A DNA stretch of 60,886 nt, filler included, from Sphacelaria rigidula (GCA_964200075.2; 10 parts of 10 records of this genome joined end to end with filler, not necessarily neighbours in it); one strand, 5' to 3'. Positions 12,883 through 23,990 are shown, numbered from the whole stretch's first letter. A program made the numbers and translations. The notes: a model not told the origin generated them from the sequence alone.

Positions 12883-15800
12883 ATGAGTTACACCGCCACC
12901 AGTTCCGACCGCATGGCGGCCGTATTCAAACGGGTACCGACATGTTCGAACGATAAGAACACCTTCATTGCATGGAAAGATCAGCTGCGAGTAGCTATCT
13001 CTATCGTTGACAAGCCCATGTTTGCCGTTCTCAACGGTCAACGAAGGCCTACTGACGAACCAGCAGGGCGCGCATGGGACCGAAAAAACAGCGACCTGTT
13101 TTCGCTGTTGTTCCTTTCAACGACCGGGCCTGCAGCTGCGACCATCCGACGCTTCTTGTACACAGAGGATGGAGATCTCGATGACCCGCGGGTCGGCGAT
13201 GGGCAAGGTGCGTGGAAGGCCTTGGTTGACAACTTTGACGGCAACACCAAAGCGGCTAGGCGGGTAGTTCACGCTCAGCTGGTTAGCCGCACGATGAACC
13301 GGGCGAGGACCCCGAAAATTTCTTCCAAGACATGGACGAAATTCGACTGCGTCTGGAGGGTCTCGGGGATCAAATGCACGACGATCGCTACGAGGACATA
13401 ATCCTCAAGGCGATAACCCCCGAGTATGACTTCGTGCGCACAAAATGCTACACCGAGCGCGACTTCGGCCTCGACAACATTCGCACCGCAATGTGCAACG
13501 CGTACAATGATCGGAGTATTGGTACGTCAACTGCACCAACCGTGGCCGGACCTGGAGCGGCCATGCAGGCTACGACATCTCGTATACAGTGTCACCTTTG
13601 CAAGGGGTGTGGGCACTATCAACGTGAATGCCCGAAAAACAAGCGAAGTCGGACACGGCCGAGTGACCCAACACAGAGACGTTGAAAAGCAGGCAAGAAG
13701 AACGGAGGTAACGAAGCATCAAAATGGTGCTCGTATCATAGAACAACAACACACAGCGATGCCGAGTGCAAGGTACAACGAAAGAAAGCAGGAGCGAATG
13801 GAAGCGCCAACATCGCCAATGTAAGCATTCCCGGGTTGTTCATCCCGCCGCCTGCCGCGGCGACGACTGCATACAGCAATTCGTCCGGAACAGTCGGAAA
13901 TCCCTGCGACCTGTGATGACAGAGTCGGCTCCTCCAGTGTTTTCCTTCGGCGCGTCCACCCTACCACAGCATGCTGGAAAAAACACGATTGACCTCTTCG
14001 GTGCCTTCGGTGGGGGTACTGGAGCAGCTTTCATGGCGGCGGTGCCAACGGCTCGGACAGCCAACGACACCAACTCCGTAACCTGGCTGATGGACAGTGG
14101 CGCGACCAGTCACTACTTGGACACCAATCTCGAGTCGGGTGTTTTAGCTCGGGCGAGTGAGTACACGGCCCTCGAACGGTCGTTCAAAATCGTAACAGGG
14201 AGACATGATGTAGTTGAAGCAGTTACAACTGCCACAATTCATGGTATAGTGGCCGACAGAGAAGAGAAGGCGCACCATGTCGCCCTCTCTTGCTTCGTCG
14301 TTCCCGGACTCGGGCGTCATCTGTTCTCCGTGAAAGTGGCGACCAAGCAAGGCATCATCGCCATCTTCGATCAACATCATCCCCGACTGAAGATTTCATC
14401 GTTCGCGCTTCCCCTGGAACAATCGATCCATGACCAAGACCTCTGCACGTTCCGCATGAAGCTGAGCAGCCACGCGGAGCAGCAACCTGGAGTGGCTATG
14501 CACGTCAGCACCGGCGCAAATCTCTGGCATCGTCGACTTGGTCACGTCGGCATTGAGAGCCTGAATGTACGTCGGAAGGTGGAAGGCTCTGGTAGCAGCT
14601 TCGATGGAAAGCTACCACCCTGTGACATTTGCGCCCTGAGCAAAAGCAAACAACAACCACGCCCGAGAACTGCGGACTATAAGGTGAACACTCCCTTCCA
14701 TCTCGTTTTCGGCGACTTCATGGGGCCATTTGTACCTGCTGCAATGGGCGGCTACAGCTACGTGTCTGAAATTACCGATCAGCATACCAAGTATCGAGTG
14801 GTTTATCTGCCAAAACTAAGAGTGACGCCCTCAGCACAATCCAGACCTTTGTTAAATCGGTGGTGATACCGATGGGGCTACGAGTTCAACGTCTTCGTAC
14901 AGATAAAGGCGGCGAGTACAAGGGACAAGAGTCCAAGGACTACTGCCTCAGCACTGGCATTCGTCATGAATACGCCTCTACGAATACTCTGCAGCAGGTG
15001 GGGGTTTCCAAGCGCGACGGCGGCATCCAGCTATGACACGTTGTCTCCTTAAGGACAGTGAACTACCACCGTTCTTATGGGCGAATTGATGTTTACTGCG
15101 GCATATCTCCCCAAGTGTGTACCTCATTCGGCGCTCAACATGGTGACACCATACAAGGAATTATACGGCAATGACGCGAACCTCTCTCATCTCCGTGTCA
15201 TTGGCGCACGGGCCTTTGTACATGTGGAGATACATACGAAGCAAATGGCGGACCAGGCTTGGGAGGGATCACTGTACGGTTACAGCCCTAACAGCAAGTC
15301 TTACCGGATATACAACCCTGCCACCAAGCGTGTGGTGGAAAGCCGGAACGTAGTCTTCCCTGAGACCCCGCCACATGTCCTTCCATGGGATCATACTTCT
15401 TGCAACAAGTACGAAACCGACGACGATTTCGCGAGGGACGTTCGCAATCATGGCATTAGCCTTTTCAACGACCCCACTACCACGTCTGCTGAATCCTCGT
15501 CCAACATCCACGAACGTATGATCAAACTGTTTGGAAACCTACGCGGCGTGACGGACCGCGTCAACGACCTTATCGGATCTTCATCGGGAGAGGTCCCCAC
15601 TGGAGCGTCCCCAGGAGGGGGAGTCACTGAAGGTTCACCTCCAGCTACAACACCGTCACCTACAGCGGATACTTCGCGTGTCAGCACGCGGGCTAATCCA
15701 CAAGCCCCGATAGACATCATCTCCGGCGCGAGCACGAGAAGAGCTCAAGCCCGCGAGCTAAAGCGCCTGGAGATTTTGGCCAATTTCTACGCCAGGGCAA

Positions 15801-17786
15801 ATATGCGAGACATCGCTCACGAGGATGGAGTTTCCTTTCTGGAGTATGCGTACTCTGCCACAAACACCCAAATTCGGAGTTGTTCGGAGGGGGAGAAAGC
15901 GGCCATAGTGCCGAACACCTTTCAAGAGGAAATGCGACTGCCAGAGGCGAAGCAGTGGAAGGCAGCATCAGACAAAGAAATAGAAAGCCTCCGTTCCAAT
16001 AATGTCTTCACGCTTGTACCCTTCACGGCGATTCCTGCAGGGATGGAAGCCATCGGATCCCGGTGGGTGTACAAGGTAAACGCCGACAACACATACAAGG
16101 GAAGACTGGTCGTCCAAGGATGGGGACAAGTACCGGGCATCGACTGCGGCGGCACCTTCGCTCCCGTCTGCAGGCTACAGAGCATCGGTGACTGCTGCCG
16201 AGATAGCCCCCCCCCCGGACCGGCCAAAAAGGTGCACGGAGGCGATGATCATAAATGCCGTTAGAGCTGGTTTCGTGCTGCACGACGCGACTCATTCAGG
16301 CGTCATAGCTTATTTCGGACTGCTACGCGTCACTCATGTGGGCGAAGTTGCTGAAACGAGCCCAATAGTAGGATCGCAGCCGGTTTGTCGGACGGTCTCC
16401 GGTGCACTTCTTGTGGGGGGGCTATCTCGGCATCAGTCCCGTATGGTGCTTGCAGCGGCCGCGGAGATTGACTGGGAAATCTGGCAGCTGGACGTGCAGA
16501 CGGCATTTCTAAACGCGCCCGTTGAAGAGGAAGTTTACGTCAAGATGGCCCCGGGCTACGAGGAGAACGATCCCGTGACGAGAGTTCCTCTCGTGATGAA
16601 GCTCAATAAGTCGTTATATGGCCTTCGCCAGTCGCCACTAAAGTGGTGGAACACCATGGACAAATTTCTGGGGGAGATCGGTTTCACCTCTCTCGCTTGA
16701 GATCCCTGCATCTACGCCTTCACTGACAACGACGACAACGACAACACCAGGGCCGGTAACTCCCGGGGCGACACCGTCAGCACCGCTCTCGAAAAGAGGG
16801 AGGTCGTCGCGCTTCTCACCCTCTACGTGGACGATGTGCTCCTTGTTGGAGGGGACGTGGCAATACTGCAGATGCTCAAGAGAAAGCTCATGGTTCGTTT
16901 CAAAATGACGGACATGGGAGACGTATCACTTGTTCTCGGAATGAGAGTCACCCGAGACCGCAAGAATGGACCGCTCACTCTCAGCCACGAGAACTACACC
17001 AAATCGATCCTGGAGAAGTACGGCATGGGGGACTGCAACCCGCTGAGCACACCAGGAACGGGAGCAGAGCTGTCATTGAATCAACCGGAAGAGCAGCGTC
17101 TGGATCCGGCGACAACACAGCGATACCAGGCGATCACTGTCTCGTTAATGTATCTAGCACAAGTGACCCGGTATGGCATCCAGTTTGCTGTCAACCAGCT
17201 TGCGAGAGCGATATCAACAATATCAAAAGCACACATGGGTGCTGCGAAACATCTTCTACGTTACCTTGCGGGGAGTGCTAGTTTCGATATCACATACAGG
17301 AATGGAGGATTTCAGCTCACCGCGTTTTCGGACGCCAACTGGGGGAACAACCCGGATGACGAGAAATCGATGCCCTCGTATATCGTCATGCTCTCGAACG
17401 CTCCGGTGAGTTTCAAAGTCGGAATACAGGGTCTAACTGCTCAGTCGACAATGGAAGCTGAGCTTGTGGCGGCAGCGCTGGCAATGAAGGAGGCTGTACT
17501 CTGTTCTAACATGATGATGGAGCTGGGATTCGGCGAGGCATTTCACAGTGTTACGGTTCACATCGACAACACCTCAACGCTTCACGTTGCCGGTAACAGC
17601 ACCTACAGTGGACGGACCAAGCATGTGGCATTGCGCTACTTCTTCATTCGCGAACTCATCAAGAAGCGGAGGATCACCCTTCATCATCCGGACAACAAGA
17701 ACAACATCGCCGACATTGGGACGAAATACCTGGGCAAAAGTCGTCACCTGCATCTGCTGCACGTAATCAAGACCTTTAGGACTTAA
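12883..17786 (+). pseudogene. Copia gag-pol polyprotein, disrupted
   Basis: Zn knuckle CHLCKGCGHYQREC, KWCSYHRTTTHSDAEC motif, protease WLMDSGATSH, LWHRRLGH...CDIC, integrase core, RT (SRWVYKV, QLDVQTAFL, KSLYGLRQSP, YVDD), RNase H (FSDANWG, STMEAE, IDNTS, RTKH, ADIGTK). Several frameshifts, a TGA at 16698 and an insertion at 16187. Confidence 0.95.
16187..16439. mobile_element. 253-bp fold-back MITE inserted in the copia RT
   Basis: TIR GACTGCTGCCGAGATAGCCCCCCC / GGGGGGGCTATCTCGGCATCAGTC. Removing it restores FAPVCRLQSI-RMVLAAAAE. Confidence 0.9.
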
Positions 17787-18297: not shown

Positions 18298-18856
18298 CTT
18301 GTCCACCTTTCCTGCCTGGGTTCTCGCTATCCCTTTTATCCCTGCCCACATTTGTTTTATCCCGCCGTCGAAATCTTCATTTGCTTTATTCCCTTCACCT
18401 TCTCAAACTTTCTTCTTTTTCTGCTGTACCATCTTTTCAAGTCCCTTTCGAGCTTTAGTATACTCCTCCTATCCTCCCGTAGTTTCACTTGATATCCACT
18501 TCGCGTGGGCGTCTCTCCTTACTCTTCTAGCCTCTTTCCCTTCCTCATCCCACCATTCTACCGCTCTGTTGCATACGACCAGTTTCCTCCCGATGCCTTT
18601 ACTCGCTGTTTTCTTCACCATCTGCTCCCATTATTGTATGATCTTCGCTTCTGTCTGATTTCTTTTCATTTCGGTGTCAACTGTACTTACGCGTTCCAAC
18701 AGCTCGGAAATCTTCACTGCATTTTTTGCCATCTTTTCTTCTTTTTGGAACACTTGCCGGTTTTTTCCATATTTAGTTTATCGATTCTCCATTTGTACGA
18801 CTTCCTACCCCGACTTTTTCTCTTAGCTCTCGTCTGTTGGCTTTCTGTCCATATTA
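18298..18856 (-). pseudogene. LINE ORF2 fragment (end of the endonuclease and linker toward RT)
   Basis: Continues TDHCL|IWTESQQTR...KWRIDKL...WWDEE...QMWAGIK once 18857-20946 is removed. Contains frameshifts and stops. Confidence 0.85.
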
Positions 18857-20946
18857 GAACACAGGATCTTAAGAATTGGGGATGGATCTTTTATTGGGGA
18901 TGAGAAACCCAGAGAAAACAAATCTTCCACACCCTGGACAAAACAATATGTTTTCGATATATATTAGTCAATGATATTGAAACTTTGCTATATATTGCCG
19001 GCGTAATGTATGTTGGTACCCTTGGATCGCACACGTATTTCGCGCCCAATATGTATCGATGTCGTGGGACTGCATACATATTGCCCGCCCAATATATATT
19101 GGTACCGTGGGGTTGAACACATATTGTCTTATCAATATATATTGGGGCAGTGTGGGTATATATATTGCACGACCAGTATATATTAGGATCGCATTGGTGA
19201 GAACATTTTGACCGGTCAAAATGTATTGGATTTGCGTGGGTGCCAATGCATTGGCCTGTCAATATATACTGTATATTATAAGTATGGTGTACACTTGAAA
19301 AACAATCCAGACGCGGTGGATGCCGGAGCCCGTGCAGATTGGGAAACGCGTCGAAGGGAGTGGCAGAGGCTCGCGTGCATTGCTACGAAGAGTTGTCGAA
19401 TTCGATTGATATGTATATATGTATATGTGAAAATACTCATCAGAAAATATGGTGGCAGAAGAGGCGACCCGGTATATATGCCTTCTGATACCTGTCTCGT
19501 CACTGGTACGGGGCCGCCCATCCCCTTCACAGCATGTAATATGCCCTGGCTAAACAACACGACAGGAAACGCGGGTCGATATGCGTCTTTTCGTGCCCCT
19601 GTGGTCACCGGTCCTGTGTCGCTCATACCCTGGACAATACAACATGTTCCAATACGATACTAATACTTTGTATTGGAGACAGCGCAAATATTGTCATTTC
19701 AATATACATTGTGTCGAGATTTCCTCGAAGATATTGAAGCAACAACATATATTTCTCGTGCCATGATCGTGAAGTAGTGCATGACAATATACGTTGGACG
19801 TGCACTTACTCCGGGAACAAAACAGTCAATACATATTGTGCATGCCGGCCTTGAATGTATTGAAGTGTCAATATATATTGAGTCAAAGTGATGCGGATAA
19901 TATTGTTGCAATAATATATACTGAGCGCAAACCATGCAAAAGCATTATTTTCCCAATATATATTGCGCACGCTCATCGCATAGCTATTGCTACACCAATA
20001 CATATTGAACACGCTCGCGGAGGAATATATTGAGCGTTTTCGGCATGTGGTAATACATCTTTCAATGGCGCCCGCGTACATAGAACTGCCCACCATACTA
20101 ATCCCGATGCGCTTTCCAAAATACACATTGAATCACCAATATATATTGCCACACCAGTATGTTTTGTGACGGTCGGCTCCTTCGTGTATTGTTTGCCCAT
20201 TATATATTGGACGCATTGACGCACGACATGTTGGGGCGGCAATATACATTGGCGCTTTGGGTGTTGAGTATATTGAACCATCAATATATGTATATTGACC
20301 TCGTGTGGCAGCCAGTATATTTCTCCACAAATATATGTTGGTGCCTTACCGCACCAACCTATTACTCGGCCTATAAATATTGAGGTGGCGCGTGTCGTGA
20401 TATATTGTTTGGTCGATATATATTGCATGTCGCGAGCCTTGACATACTGGTGGTACAACATATATTGACCCTCTCTCGTGTCATCATATTGCTCACCCAA
20501 TATATATTGACCACCCGACGCGTCGATATATTGAGCGAGCAATATATATATATATTACATATTGTATTGTCCAGGGTGTGAAATCTTCGTATCCACATCA
20601 AATCTTTGAAATATGATTCCATTTCTTCACGTACTGATAGCTATAGACAACTGCTACACGCGATAGAAATTTGAATTTCGATCATCAAAGTTTTGGGATC
20701 CTAGGTGAAAAAACAATTCGGAACCATTTTGGCGCCCGTTCGGACACCCGAAATTCCCCAAAAAGGGTTTTTCACCTAGGATCCCAACATTTTCTATGCC
20801 GTGTAGCAGTTTTCAATAGTGATCAGTAGGTGAAGAAATGGAACGATGTTGCGAAGATTTGGGGTGGATATGATGATTTTAATTCCCCGGGTTTCTCATC
20901 CTCAATAAAACGATCCATCACCAATAATTTGTAAGATCCCGTGTTT
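18857..20946. mobile_element. TA-TSD TIR element (about 430 bp without its nested insert) inserted in the LINE endonuclease
   Basis: TA|GAACACAGGATCTTA...TAAGATCCCGTGTTT|TA with long imperfect inverted arms. An uninterrupted relative lies at 26257-26692. Confidence 0.9.
18928..20580. mobile_element. Non-autonomous TIR element with an 8-bp TSD and a phased palindrome array
   Basis: TSD AAATCTTC at 18920-18927 and 20581-20588. TIR CACACCCTGGACAA(A/T)ACAATATG. Internal extra TIR copy at 19624. Confidence 0.9.
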
Positions 20947-21700
20947 TAGGCAATGATCTGTGTTTCCCCCGTCCTCCGCGCATATATGTACTTCCATTTC
21001 TCTACTATTCCCATGCTACACTACATAGGCAAGAACGGAGTGTTGTTTTTTATCCTTTGCATTCCCTCGTCCATGTCCATTGCGTCTCTGGCTCTTATGC
21101 TCTATCGTTCAGCTTCTTCATCTCGTTGTGCCCGAGGAGTTTCAGCATTTCTACCTCATTAGTGTTCTTCTTATCTTCCCCGTATTGCTCAATGATATCA
21201 TCCGGTTGACCTGCTCTTCCTACCCTTGCATTGAAACCTTCCACTAACAATACTTCTCCTTGCCTTTTAAACTTATGTACATCCGCTGCTATCTCTACAA
21301 ACCTCCGTTGTATACCGTTAACCCTACTCTTCGATTCTGGGGGCATGTAGACGTTACCCACGGAGAAGTCTTTCATTCCCCGCTTTCCTGGTACCCTTAG
21401 CCATATGCTCTCGTCGAATTTCATGTAATCGATTACTTCTACACTGTCGCACAGATATTCCTTGACCAGGAATACTACTCTCCCCGCTCCCCTGCTTTTG
21501 GACTTCTGTCCCTTCCGCTTCTACCTATCCATGCGTACTCTTCAACTTCGCATCCTATTCCCGCCCCCTGTTTCTCCCATGACTCTTGAATTCCTACTAT
21601 ATCTAGGTCGTGTTTGCTCACTTGTTGCACTATCTCTTCTCTTTTGCGCTTGACTATGGCGAACCTACACACGTTCCACGATCCTATTCTGAAATTCTTC
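20947..21700 (-). pseudogene. LINE ORF2 APE-like endonuclease domain, decayed
   Basis: RIGSWNV...DIVGIQESW...GVVFLVK...ESIWLRV...VGNVYMPP...EGFNARVG...TDH motifs across frameshifts. The upstream region 21700-22300 is probably a decayed ORF1. Confidence 0.9.
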
Positions 21701-22989
21701 TTGAATCATTATCTGCTCTCGTGTTGTCTACTGTTCTCTCTCCGTCGCTTTTACTTTCACTTTTCCTCGCTTGGTTGTTCTTCCCGTTTCTGCGTTAGAC
21801 TTTGTCTATTTGCTCCGGGCAGCTATGTCCCCTCCCCTTTCCCTTTTGGACACTTACCTGTTCCTGCCTCTCCCCCCCTCCGTTTACCCGTGGACTGCGT
21901 CCTAACCTTGTTGTTCCATTAGCTATGCATACTCCCCACCCTATTTTTCTAACCCATGCCGAGACCTTACTTGTCTCAATCGTTTCCCACTCCTTGCTCG
22001 CCGTCTGTTTCAGCGTGACTCGGGAGTGTTCTCCCTCCCTTTCTACTTTTCCTGTTGCCAAACAGTACAGTCGAAATCCACGGCATCTCCTTTAAAACTA
22101 ATTTCTATACTGTCACTTCGATACGAACTCCAAATACGAGCATTACTAGTACGTTACCCGTCCAATCTTTACTTCTAAATCCACCCTTCCTTACCGCCTC
22201 TCTCTCGATCTCTTTCAAGATAACCTCCGGCTTGTTCGTTTCAATTGTTTCGGAGGAATGTAGTCAGCGTACTCGGACATCCCAATCCTAGTACTCGTTG
22301 GGGGCCTGGTGTCTCTCATTGTTTTTGCTGGCTCACCGACACTGTATTATGCCTCTAACACGGGCTCGTAGCCTGAAGCCAAGTTCAACACCTTTCACAC
22401 AAGTACCCCACATGATCTTCATGGTAAAACATCCAGGCGTCCCACGAGGATCGCATCTTCTATCTCCTTGCCCCTCTGCTGTACTGGCTACTTTCCTCCA
22501 GGGAGGTCATTTCCACCGTACAAGGTTTAAGGACGGCTTGCATAACACATGACCTCACTCACATCAGGATGTCCCGTACATCACTTTTCCCACTCCGTGT
22601 ACGGTTCACCATGGGTCGCTACTCCAAAGATGCTTCCGAGTAGACCTTTGCTGCCGAAAGCTTGGCCAACGATTCCCCACACTTCGTACCAGCTTCTATC
22701 CTTCAAGATCTCAAGAAGTCTACCTACCACTTGGTGCTCCTTCTCGTAGACCACGTGGTCGGTCATCGGTAAGGTGTTTGTTCCATGAGTGCAATAGGTC
22801 TTGACGTTCACGTCATGCACTGTCTACCCCTCCCCTCCCTTGGACGCTTTTTGCATCTAATGCCGGAAATTTCTGGAAATAATTGACCAGACTTCCACCG
22901 CCCAATGGAAACCGGTAAGGTTTTACGAGTATCTCACCACGAGCCTCTAACCTCTATGTGAATCTGACACGGAGGGGGTGATGACCCTA

Positions 22990-23160
22990 CCCTGTCCGTA
23001 CTGGTTATATCTTCTGTACTTTCGATTTGCATGTAAGGTGATCAACCTTCACGCTGTTACGTACATGTCTGGGTCCCTATCCATACTGGTTATATCTGCT
23101 GTACTTTCGATATGCATGCAAGGTGGTCAACCCTCATGCTATTACTTGCATGTCTAGGGT
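22990..23160. repeat. 85-bp tandem duplication
   Basis: ccct.tcc.tactggttatatct.ctgtactttcgat.tgcatg.aaggtg.tcaacc at 22990 and 23075. Confidence 0.85.
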
Positions 23161-23261
23161 TTGGCCCTCATTCTTGTCTTACGCTTGTTACGATATCGGG
23201 GAGATTATCGGTTGTTTTCGGACTTGATATGGAAAAGTATATTTGATATTTATCACTATTC

Positions 23262-23990
23262 CACGTTTACGTTCGGGCTGTGTTATGGTAGCCTAAAGGA
23301 AAAGGAGGGTCAGCTTATTTATATCATGTTTATGTACGGACTGTGTCATGGTAAGTTAAGGAAAAATTACGGTGAGCTTATTCATTTCATGTCTATGTCC
23401 GGGCTGTGTTTTGGTATGATGAATAAAAGGGAGGGTTAGCTGCCTTATTCCATGTCTATGTCCAGGCTGTGTTATGGTATGCTGAGTAAAAAGGAATATT
23501 AGCCTATTTCACGTCTATCTCTGAGCTGTGTTATGGCAGGTTAACGAAAAAGGAGGGTCAGCTTCTCTATTTCATGCCTTTGTCCGGGCTGTCTTATGGT
23601 AGATTAAGGAACAGGAGGGTTACCTTCGCTACTCCATGCCCATGTCCGGGCTGTCTTATGGTAGGTTGAAGAAAAAGGAGGGTTAGCTCATCTATTTCAT
23701 GTCGACGTCCGGGCTATGTCATGGTAGGTTAAAAAAAAAAGAAGGCTAGCTTATCTATTTCATGTCTATGTCAGGGCTCTGTTATGGTAGGTTAAAGGAA
23801 AAGGAGGATCAGGTTATCTATTTAATGTCGATGTCCGCGCTGAATTACAGTAGATGAAAGAAAAAGGAGAGCTAGCCTATTTATTTTCATATCTACATCC
23901 GGTCTGTGTTATGCCAAAAAGGAGGGTTGGCCTCGTTATTATCATATCTATGTCCGGGCTGTGATATGGTGTCGGAAAAAAAAAACGTTT
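23262..23990. repeat. Minisatellite, about 62-63-bp unit, about 12 diverged copies
   Basis: Approximate consensus TCCGGGCTGTGTTATGGTAGGTTAA.GAAAAGGAGGGTTAGCTTATCTATTTCATGTCTATG. Confidence 0.95.

What the first reader, a model, noticed from the sequence alone, without database searches (positions are those of the whole stretch)
18928..20580. Mobile element carrying a CRISPR-like, helically phased array of palindromes with variable spacers
Seen: about 27 units of 42-43 bp. Each unit is a TATTG half-site, 5-6 nt, the palindrome CAATATATATTG, then a 15-20-nt GC-richer spacer that differs between units. Palindrome starts include 19004, 19047, 19090, 19133, 19174, 19217, 19260; then 19700, 19743, 19785, 19827, 19869, 19912, 19954, 19996; then 20198, 20240, 20282, 20329, 20371, 20414, 20456, 20498, 20540. 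Motif and spacing are conserved while spacers are not, and all units point the same way rather than mirroring from each end. The array is bounded by 23-bp TIRs and an exact 8-bp TSD. Known: TIR transposons often carry subterminal transposase-binding repeats, and 8-bp TSDs fit hAT, P or Merlin, but CACACC ends do not match the hAT YARNG consensus. Inference: 42 bp is about four helical turns, so this could be a selected, phased protein-binding or chromatin-organising array, or a template for processed small RNAs, in a possibly unclassified TIR family. No cas-like gene is present, so it is not called CRISPR.
Basis: partly seen in the sequence, partly recalled or inferred. Interest (0 to 1): 0.8.

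Follow-up and report, generated by a model that had tools for sequence, protein, structure and literature searches.

The report
Evenly spaced sites in algal transposon
This is one of well over a hundred copies of a non-coding jumping gene of the hAT kind, and its evenly spaced palindromes are fixed, inherited repeats that likely serve as docking sites for the enzyme that moves it, not a CRISPR-like memory array.

Summary
The array is real: 27 palindromes, mostly 42-43 bp apart, inside a 1,653-bp element with 24-bp inverted ends and an exact 8-bp target duplication. It is a dispersed non-coding family (242 exact end matches). Spacers are the same and collinear in all copies, partly homologous to each other, and no new spacer appears, so it is not CRISPR-like. 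hAT transposase genes in the same genome carry the same 16-bp end; one complete copy has an 8-bp duplication. Ectocarpus hAT-2 has the same CACAC termini, so the family is classifiable. Those hATs, and a sister family with a different site sequence, also carry 42-43-bp arrays pointing one way at both ends; an unrelated hAT family does not. Motifs are depleted of shared variants (15/449 versus 134/1118 sites) but not of rare ones, which points to constraint during transposition and none after insertion. Best reading: likely phased binding sites for the transposase's BED finger; binding is untested. The fixed pitch across families was not found in my paper searches. The scan earlier noted similar arrays in fungal transposons, not this family.

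The parts
18920..18927 (.). Left copy of the 8-bp target-site duplication (AAATCTTC)
   Evidence: Reads of other copies of the host repeat continue directly into the sequence after one AAATCTTC (loose ends at 18927), so the duplication arose on insertion.
18928..20580 (.). Whole non-autonomous hAT-type element, 1,653 bp, no transposase remnant detected
   Evidence: 52 matches from 40 scored of 761 candidates; 21 full-length copies collinear; tblastn of three hAT protein pieces against 50 family loci gave no hit
18928..18951 (+). Left terminal inverted repeat, 24 bp; the family's first 16 bases are identical to the 3' TIR of a hAT transposase element of this genome
18955..19271 (+). Left subterminal array: a first palindrome at 18955, then 7 units (ATATTG-N6-CAATATATATTG-N19) at 43-bp pitch
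   Evidence: lag-43 self-identity 0.58 in the window copy and 0.72 in the consensus, against a median of about 0.25
19272..19623 (.). Non-array interior shared by the family, including a worn AT microsatellite
19624..19647 (+). Internal copy of the left TIR, in the same orientation as the left end, preceding the middle array
   Evidence: (pair I6)
19688..20007 (+). Middle array, 8 units at 42-43-bp pitch
20125..20551 (+). Right subterminal array, 10 units plus one palindrome 18 bp upstream, same direction as the left array
20557..20580 (-). Right terminal inverted repeat, 24 bp
20581..20588 (.). Right copy of the 8-bp target-site duplication
18858..20947 (.). Host repeat: a roughly 430-bp foldback element into which the transposon has inserted (context, not part of the element)
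   Evidence: Inverted pairs I1, I3, I5; joints 18854 to 20947 and loose ends at 18858

Best explanation
This is a non-coding, multi-copy DNA transposon whose ends match hAT transposase elements of the same genome, and its three 42-43-bp arrays are fixed subterminal repeats that likely act as binding sites for the BED zinc finger of the hAT transposase that would move it. Shown: TIRs, 8-bp duplications, dispersal, fixed collinear spacers, a shared end with hAT genes, the same pitch and one-way orientation in related hAT families, and motif constraint limited to shared variants. Inferred: the array arose by tandem duplication of a unit holding three 6-bp half-sites. Source copies that kept the half-sites and their spacing transposed better, so motifs and lengths stayed while spacers drifted towards saturation. 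A pitch averaging 42.5 bp (about four helical turns at 10.5 bp per turn, general knowledge) would put successive sites on nearly the same face of the DNA for cooperative loading of transposase multimers. Once inserted, copies decay neutrally.
For: Family: 242 exact 19-mer TIR matches and 1,060 exact half-site-plus-palindrome matches, with 0 for each reversed control. TSD: 32 long elements have 8-bp duplications (21 exact, 8 with one mismatch, 3 with two), with a target profile near AAATATTT. Partner: L244 (C9129) is a 6,779-bp element with this TIR type at both ends and an 8-bp duplication matching at 7 of 8. Among the 40 hAT-containing stretches fetched, 12 more have this TIR 1.0-1.5 kb from the dimerisation exon. 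Their transposase is hAT: 30 of 30 Atlas hits carry PF05699 at score 0.94; hhalign to a Pfam-confirmed hAT gives probability 97.6, E 3.6e-12. An N-terminal CCHH finger scores 0.96 against BED clusters. Pitch: the top self-identity lag was 42, 43, 84, 85 or 86 in 16 of 16 ends with this TIR and 7 of 8 sister-family ends, against 9% of 293 random windows; an unrelated hAT end type passed z 3.3 in 1 of 51, the null in 7 of 293. The sister family has 14 units at 42-43 bp built on a different site (AGCTCA), with pairs up to 93% identical. Arrays are in direct orientation at both ends in L244 (87%) and L181 (86%). L244 has TATTG-N6-(C/A)AATA just inside its TIRs and related C-AT-N4-AT-G palindromes 42 bp apart. 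Selection, 48 copies: common-variant sites 15 of 449 in motifs against 134 of 1,118 elsewhere (p=2e-8); rare variants 0.0319 against 0.0312 (p=0.70). Precedent: Hermes BED domains bind a palindromic subterminal pair cooperatively and phasing matters (PMC10368747).
Against: No binding was measured. The element is not a deletion derivative of L244: blastn finds only the 16-bp end and AT runs. The strict pattern ATTG-N6-(C/A)AAT occurs once in L244 against 16 times in the family consensus, and L244's array units use a 7-nt linker and a looser palindrome, so the true partner may be a sister family I did not find. Direct Pfam support for the partner is weak: dimerisation domain E 0.03 and 0.13 in two copies and no hit in L244; no zf-BED hit. 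The PDB search gave only Hermes, at E 0.55-0.76. The BED model was low-confidence (pLDDT 51.5). The inspected partner copies are broken by stops or frameshifts. In Hermes, mutating inner BED sites did not greatly reduce transposition and a host factor was proposed (PMC10368747 Discussion). Copies are related and were picked by best score, so the p-values are not from independent samples. The two array-bearing hAT groups join at only SH-aLRT 87 in a quick tree of 116 columns.
Confidence: 0.8

Rival explanations
1. It is a hAT, but the arrays bind a host factor (a DNA-bending or chromatin protein) needed for transposition rather than the transposase.
For: Constraint acts on source copies, which fits any transposition cofactor. 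Inner Hermes sites were dispensable and a host bending factor was proposed (PMC10368747). The array units of the nearest partner differ in detail from this element's.
Against: The site sequence changes from family to family along with the transposase and TIR (ATATTG-type against AGCTCA) while the geometry stays. One host protein would be expected to keep one motif (inference).
Confidence: 0.1
2. The arrays are an old minisatellite decaying without function inside a hAT; regular spacing is only inherited.
For: Spacers are homologous: left arm 0.48 against 0.26 shuffled (p=0.0005), right arm 0.36 against 0.31 (p=0.003). The sister family still looks like a minisatellite. Deletions remove about one unit at a time, which slippage alone gives.
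Against: Decay is not uniform: motifs are 89% alike between units while spacers are 35% alike (null 31%), and all 22 spacers keep 18-19 nt. Shared variants avoid motifs in both AT and GC columns (p=5e-5 and 0.015).
Confidence: 0.05
3. A CRISPR-like array that acquires spacers, or a template cut into small guide RNAs.
For: Superficial repeat-spacer look. Contigs from three runs guessed to be RNA cover family copies in short pieces, but these are contigs of uncertain type and say nothing about processing.
Against: Spacers are fixed and collinear across copies. In the alignable parts of 48 copies the three insertions of 25 bp or more are AT-run expansions, and none is a new spacer. Spacers resemble each other. 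No Rfam match. Inserted copies show no constraint, and 11 of 21 full copies have a palindrome swollen by AT slippage.
Confidence: 0.02
4. The element is moved by a transposase of another superfamily with 8-bp duplications (MULE foldback type, KDZ/Zisupton, P).
For: Muta1 has 8-9-bp TSDs and tandem 12-bp subterminal repeats (PMC5499845). Ectocarpus KDZ elements have 8-bp TSDs and tandem-repeat termini. 19 MULE domains exist in this genome. The exact parent was not found.
Against: The identical 16-bp end sits on hAT genes. TIRs are 24 bp and arrays are direct, not foldback. KDZ and P-type searches found nothing, though their controls did not ring. Of 19 MULE loci, two (L202, L206) have this TIR type within 1.5 kb; in L202 the two ends face each other 265 bp apart, like a small insert, and L206 was not resolved.
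Confidence: 0.03

Closest known systems
hAT-2_Ec32 (Repbase hAT-2_ESi) of Ectocarpus, PMC12477816 supplement file 1, row 124
   Same: CACAC-GTGTG termini, short TIR (21 bp there, 24 here), assumed 8-bp TSD, spliced hAT gene in the autonomous form, similar size class (8,945 bp against 6,779 bp for L244).
   Different: This copy is non-coding and from a much more abundant family (92 copies listed for hAT-2_Ec32). The annotation row mentions no subterminal array. I could not compare sequences: the TIR strings were not in the five supplement files held.
Ds1 and Ds-l4 non-autonomous elements of the maize Ac/Ds family (PMC3260210, passages)
   Same: Non-autonomous hATs that share little with the autonomous element beyond the TIR and subterminal repeats; 8-bp TSD; hundreds of copies.
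   Different: Ds1 is about 400 bp with few hexamers. Here about 26 three-site units at a fixed 42-43-bp pitch fill most of 1.65 kb.
Hermes subterminal repeats bound by BED domains (PMC10368747, passages and Discussion part 1)
   Same: hAT with an N-terminal BED finger; palindromic half-site pairs; exact phasing matters near the end; ends are asymmetric.
   Different: Hermes sites are 4-bp words, described as interspersed and not aligned between ends, with two palindromic pairs on the left end. No long regular lattice is described in what I read.
Muta1 foldback MULE of Aedes aegypti (PMC5499845, passages)
   Same: Tandem 12-bp subterminal repeats with variable linkers that strengthen transposase binding and excision; 8-9-bp TSD.
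   Different: Different superfamily. Repeats lie within 145-bp inverted TIRs (mirrored ends) with 3-4-bp linkers; here the arrays are direct and the pitch is 42-43 bp.
CRISPR arrays (features recalled)
   Same: Repeat-spacer appearance with a palindromic repeat.
   Different: Spacers are fixed, mutually homologous and not acquired; the array lies inside a eukaryotic TIR transposon; no Rfam match.

Membership tests
hAT superfamily (non-autonomous member) | 8-bp target-site duplication | tested here: met
   Exact in the window. 18 of 21 two-ended copies pass at 2 or fewer mismatches, one more (L029) is exact by eye, two do not match. 32 long elements in all.
hAT superfamily (non-autonomous member) | Short terminal inverted repeats | tested here: met
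   24 bp, 23 of 24 matching
hAT superfamily (non-autonomous member) | Termini shared with an element that encodes a hAT transposase | tested here: met
   16 of 16 bases identical with the 3' end of L244, 17 of 19 with its 5' end; 12 further gene-linked ends; hAT identity
   Ends read CACAC. Gene-bearing hATs here and Ectocarpus hAT-2_Ec32 also read CACAC, so the consensus is not defining for this clade.
hAT superfamily (non-autonomous member) | Partner transposase has BED finger, DDE core with CxxH, C-terminal dimerisation domain | tested here: inconclusive
   BED by Atlas 0.96 (PF02892 on 10-40% of cluster members) but no Pfam or PDB hit. TD and CxxH columns are invariant. Dimerisation domain is supported, weak.
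hAT superfamily (non-autonomous member) | Mobilised by the hAT transposase; subterminal repeats bound by it | not testable with these tools
   Needs binding and excision assays; indirect support
hAT-2_ESi / hAT-2_Ec32 family | Sequence similarity to the described consensus | not testable with these tools
   The consensus sequence was not found in the supplement files held; only the CACAC termini match
CRISPR-like acquisitive array | Spacers differ between copies or are gained at one end | tested here: not met
CRISPR-like acquisitive array | Spacers are unrelated to each other and foreign in origin | tested here: not met
   Mutual homology above shuffles in the left and right arms; the middle arm is not significant (p=0.065). 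Foreign origin was not searched.
CRISPR-like acquisitive array | Processing into small RNAs | not testable with these tools
   No run on record as RNA and no raw reads were offered
MULE foldback (Muta1 type) | Long TIRs made of mirrored subterminal repeats | tested here: not met
   TIR 24 bp; arrays direct
KDZ/Zisupton or P | Matching transposase in the genome | tested here: inconclusive
   No PF18758 or PF21787 match, but neither search rang in controls

The most novel reading that the evidence does not exclude
The CACAC-ended hATs of this genome share a fixed end architecture: long one-directional lattices of three half-sites per 42-43 bp, kept across families whose transposases are only about 30% identical and whose site sequence has been replaced. 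The pitch would then be set by the protein assembly, a helically phased transposase polymer or repeated multimer that coats several hundred bases of each end head to tail, unlike the closed Hermes octamer that reads only the first 35 bp.
Probability: 0.3. Interest if true: 0.55.

Novelty: new variant of a known kind. Interest (0 to 1): 0.3.

Why it matters
As an element it is ordinary: a non-autonomous hAT with subterminal repeats. What adds value is the geometry. The role of distal subterminal repeats in hATs, and whether hATs other than Hermes form higher multimers, is stated as open in PMC10368747. A clade in which the pitch is fixed at about four helical turns while the recognised word changes, with a genomic sign that the sites are selected only during transposition, gives ready substrates to test this: swap motifs between families, or shift the pitch by half a turn. 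It also gives a simple signature (CACAC ends plus 42-43-bp periodicity) for classifying unknown algal DNA elements.

Tried and rejected
Three early TIR-to-hAT links were coincidences and were dropped. In C13751 (L082) a 160-bp mini element sits in a hAT family with its own TAGAG ends. In C8403/C19620 the exact TIR lies inside a larger repeat with a shared flank in six loci; these two rows carry a false 'A' label in the tree, and one 'B' label there (L074) is also unreliable. In C6133 (L150) it is a 134-bp insert. A putative third end type (L184, L145) showed no 42-bp period, 0 of 2, and has the same flank in both loci, so it is probably not a true end. One of the 16 ends counted (L248) is not linked to a gene of the partner family. 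KDZ and P-element domain searches were empty, with uninformative controls. No autonomous element was found among 20 TIR-bearing stretches, and no closer parent among 13 further hAT stretches. The tblastx output was cut at 2,000 characters and showed only a family copy. The TIR was absent from metagenome contigs and the unit from viral contigs. Rfam: no match. Sequencing runs: no RNA holder on record; laying contigs of three guessed-RNA runs and one other run cannot show expression or small RNAs. The homologue search for the dimerisation exon among longer proteins found nothing, which is weak evidence. The profile of the DDE exon gave no relevant PDB hit. The BED model was too poor for a fold search, which was not run. 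The careful tree did not finish; the quick tree was used. I did not search spacers against phage, virus or host sequence: 18-19-mers are too short to be significant in those collections, and the spacers are fixed in the family. Paper searches for a described 42-43-bp hAT array listed nothing that describes one. Most listings were seen only as titles and abstract starts, and subscription journals, Repbase and Dfam were not searchable.

Full report
Observation. The element spans 18928-20580, has 24-bp TIRs matching at 23 positions, and is flanked by an exact AAATCTTC duplication. The palindrome occurs 14 times with at most one mismatch, all inside the element, against 0.12 expected. Scoring 27 sites gives 20 of 26 intervals at 42 or 43 bp, and a half-site on the 5' side in 20 of 27 against 1 of 27 in the mirror position. 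There are three arrays and an internal third TIR at 19624. The element sits in a small foldback repeat; other copies of that repeat carry one AAATCTTC, which shows the duplication was made on insertion. The genome is 244 Mb in 27,214 contigs. That it is a brown alga is my inference, from the CACAC hATs, the genome size and an 'algae metagenome' label.

It is a dispersed family with fixed spacers. A DNA search gave 52 matches from the 40 best of 761 candidates, most near full length at 79-85% to the window copy. The 19-bp end occurs 242 times exactly, and the half-site-plus-palindrome 1,060 times, with 0 for reversed controls. So there are well over a hundred copies. The 21 two-ended copies among the first 30 loci align collinearly at 87-95% to their consensus. 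Each of 22 spacers averages 88-98% identity to the consensus over 19-21 copies. In the alignable parts of 48 copies (of 50 loci given), the three insertions of 25 bp or more are all AT-run expansions, and 15 of 17 deletions are 38-44 bp, about one unit. Larger insertions in a few copies split the alignments and were not classified; they held no hit to three hAT protein pieces. Spacers also resemble one another: left arm 0.48 against 0.26 shuffled, right arm 0.36 against 0.31, middle arm not significant. The array therefore arose by tandem duplication and does not acquire sequence. Thirty-two long elements have 8-bp duplications, with a symmetric preference near AAATATTT.

The decay is not uniform. 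Between units the motifs are 89% alike, the spacers 35% (null 31%), yet all 22 spacers are 18 or 19 nt and the consensus pitch averages 42.5 bp. Splitting variants among the 48 copies by frequency separates two epochs. Rare variants, which mostly arose after insertion (inference), hit motifs and spacers equally (0.0319 against 0.0312, p=0.70). Common variants, inherited from different source copies (inference), occupy 15 of 449 motif columns against 134 of 1,118 spacer and interior columns (p=2e-8), and 1 of 48 TIR columns. The motifs behave like the TIR: constrained while the element is being copied, free afterwards. In line with that, 11 of 21 full copies have a palindrome lengthened by AT slippage. 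The copies are related and chosen by score, so the p-values are indicative.

The partner is a hAT. KDZ and P-type searches were empty but uninformative. The genome has 139 hAT dimerisation matches among 150 scored candidates. Three early links between this TIR and hAT genes proved to be small inserts and were rejected. A protein search with a sister hAT led to L244, a 6,779-bp element with this TIR type at both ends, an 8-bp duplication matching at 7 of 8, and a spliced, now broken gene. Twelve more of the 40 stretches fetched have the same TIR 1.0-1.5 kb beyond the dimerisation exon, with different flanks. Pfam is weak on this family (E 0.03 and 0.13; none for L244) and the PDB search returns only Hermes at E 0.55-0.76. 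However, the Atlas gives PF05699 for 30 of 30 hits, hhalign ties it to a Pfam-confirmed hAT at E 3.6e-12, and its N-terminal CCHH region scores 0.96 against BED clusters. The curated Ectocarpus library lists hAT-2_Ec32 (Repbase hAT-2_ESi) with CACAC-GTGTG termini and 21-bp TIRs (PMC12477816; I saw passages, section 5 part 1 and searched rows of supplement files). The library's sequences were not among the files I could search, so family-level identity is untested. The window element shares only the end, not internal sequence, with L244, as Ds1 does with Ac (PMC3260210, passages). Its exact parent was not found.

The pitch is a trait of this hAT group. The top self-identity lag was 42, 43, 84, 85 or 86 in 16 of 16 ends with this TIR (one of them, L248, not linked to the partner gene) and in 7 of 8 ends of the sister families with TIR CACACGTCGGACA. 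Two interior controls peaked at 63 and 91, and two doubtful ends of a third type showed nothing. Random windows gave such a top lag in 9% of 293, and an unrelated hAT end type passed the threshold in 1 of 51 against 7 of 293 for the null. These ends are copies of about three or four families, not independent events. The sister family's array has 14 units at 42-43 bp with three AGCTCA-type half-sites each, and pairs up to 93% identical, which shows the minisatellite origin at an earlier stage. The two transposase groups are 27-34% identical in the regions aligned and join at SH-aLRT 87 in a quick tree of 89 short sequences, apart from the unrelated end type; this is weak support.

Mechanism. 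hAT transposases bind subterminal repeats through the BED finger. In Hermes two BED domains bind a palindromic pair cooperatively, and a one-base shift impairs cleavage (PMC10368747, passages and Discussion part 1). In the MULE Muta1 more subterminal repeats give stronger binding and more excision (PMC5499845, passages). I infer that each unit here offers three half-sites, and that a pitch near four turns lets transposase multimers load cooperatively on one face of the DNA. Against this: nothing was measured; L244's array motif is looser, has a 7-nt linker and matches the strict unit pattern only once; and inner Hermes sites were largely dispensable. The change of motif with family argues for the transposase over a host protein.

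Novelty and verdict. Non-autonomous hATs with subterminal repeats are common, and CACAC-ended hATs are already catalogued in Ectocarpus. Seven paper searches showed no description of a fixed 42-43-bp, one-way lattice conserved across hAT families. One listed paper on a maize hAT was opened for passages and describes only short subterminal motifs (PMC9881132). The library lacks most subscription papers, Repbase and Dfam. Earlier notes of this scan report similar palindrome arrays in fungal transposons and none for this sequence; I did not test them. Verdict: real feature, not CRISPR-like, a hAT family with an unusually regular end architecture. New variant of a known kind, interest 0.3.

Noticed in passing
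window 23256-23913 (and 22990-23160): A 63-bp tandem array of 10.5 copies whose units, read on the minus strand, contain a word resembling the partner hAT's TIR (CACAGCCCGGACATAGACATG); an 85-bp two-copy repeat lies just upstream. It may be the end of another element of the same group; 63 bp is six helical turns.
   Followed up: no
L149 3946-4088, L150 4332-4465, L178 557-693, L197 6547-6681 and 7079-7220, L239 2766-2935: Several 134-170-bp mini elements with the same TIR type and 8-bp duplications but no 42-bp array, so very short ends seem enough for some members to have moved.
   Followed up: partly
L244 about 700 bp from the 3' end; also L230, L232, L246, L264, L265: The partner hAT has a degenerate internal TIR copy just before its 3' array, in the same orientation as the left end, like the internal TIR at window 19624. 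The right end may have been built from a duplicated left end.
   Followed up: partly
TSD profile of 37 elements: The preferred target, near AAATATTT, resembles the array's own AATAT half-site; L035 shows one copy inserted inside another copy's array.
   Followed up: no
window 18858-20947 and L244 element positions about 2290-2640: The foldback repeat that hosts the element appears very abundant (much deeper cover than the element), and a similar sequence, judged by eye, lies in an intron of the partner hAT.
   Followed up: no
window 21095-21705 (-): Broken reading frames that look like a LINE endonuclease by recalled motifs; no Pfam hit at E 0.001 for the one piece tested.
   Followed up: partly
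window 13742-17786 (+): Degraded Copia-type LTR retrotransposon (gag-pre-integrase and RVT_2 hits) on the neighbouring contig.
   Followed up: partly
L081 (C8403) just beyond position 2922; also L136, L139, L141, L142: A larger repeat holds an old TIR of this type followed by a tRNA-like sequence (judged by eye) in several loci.
   Followed up: no
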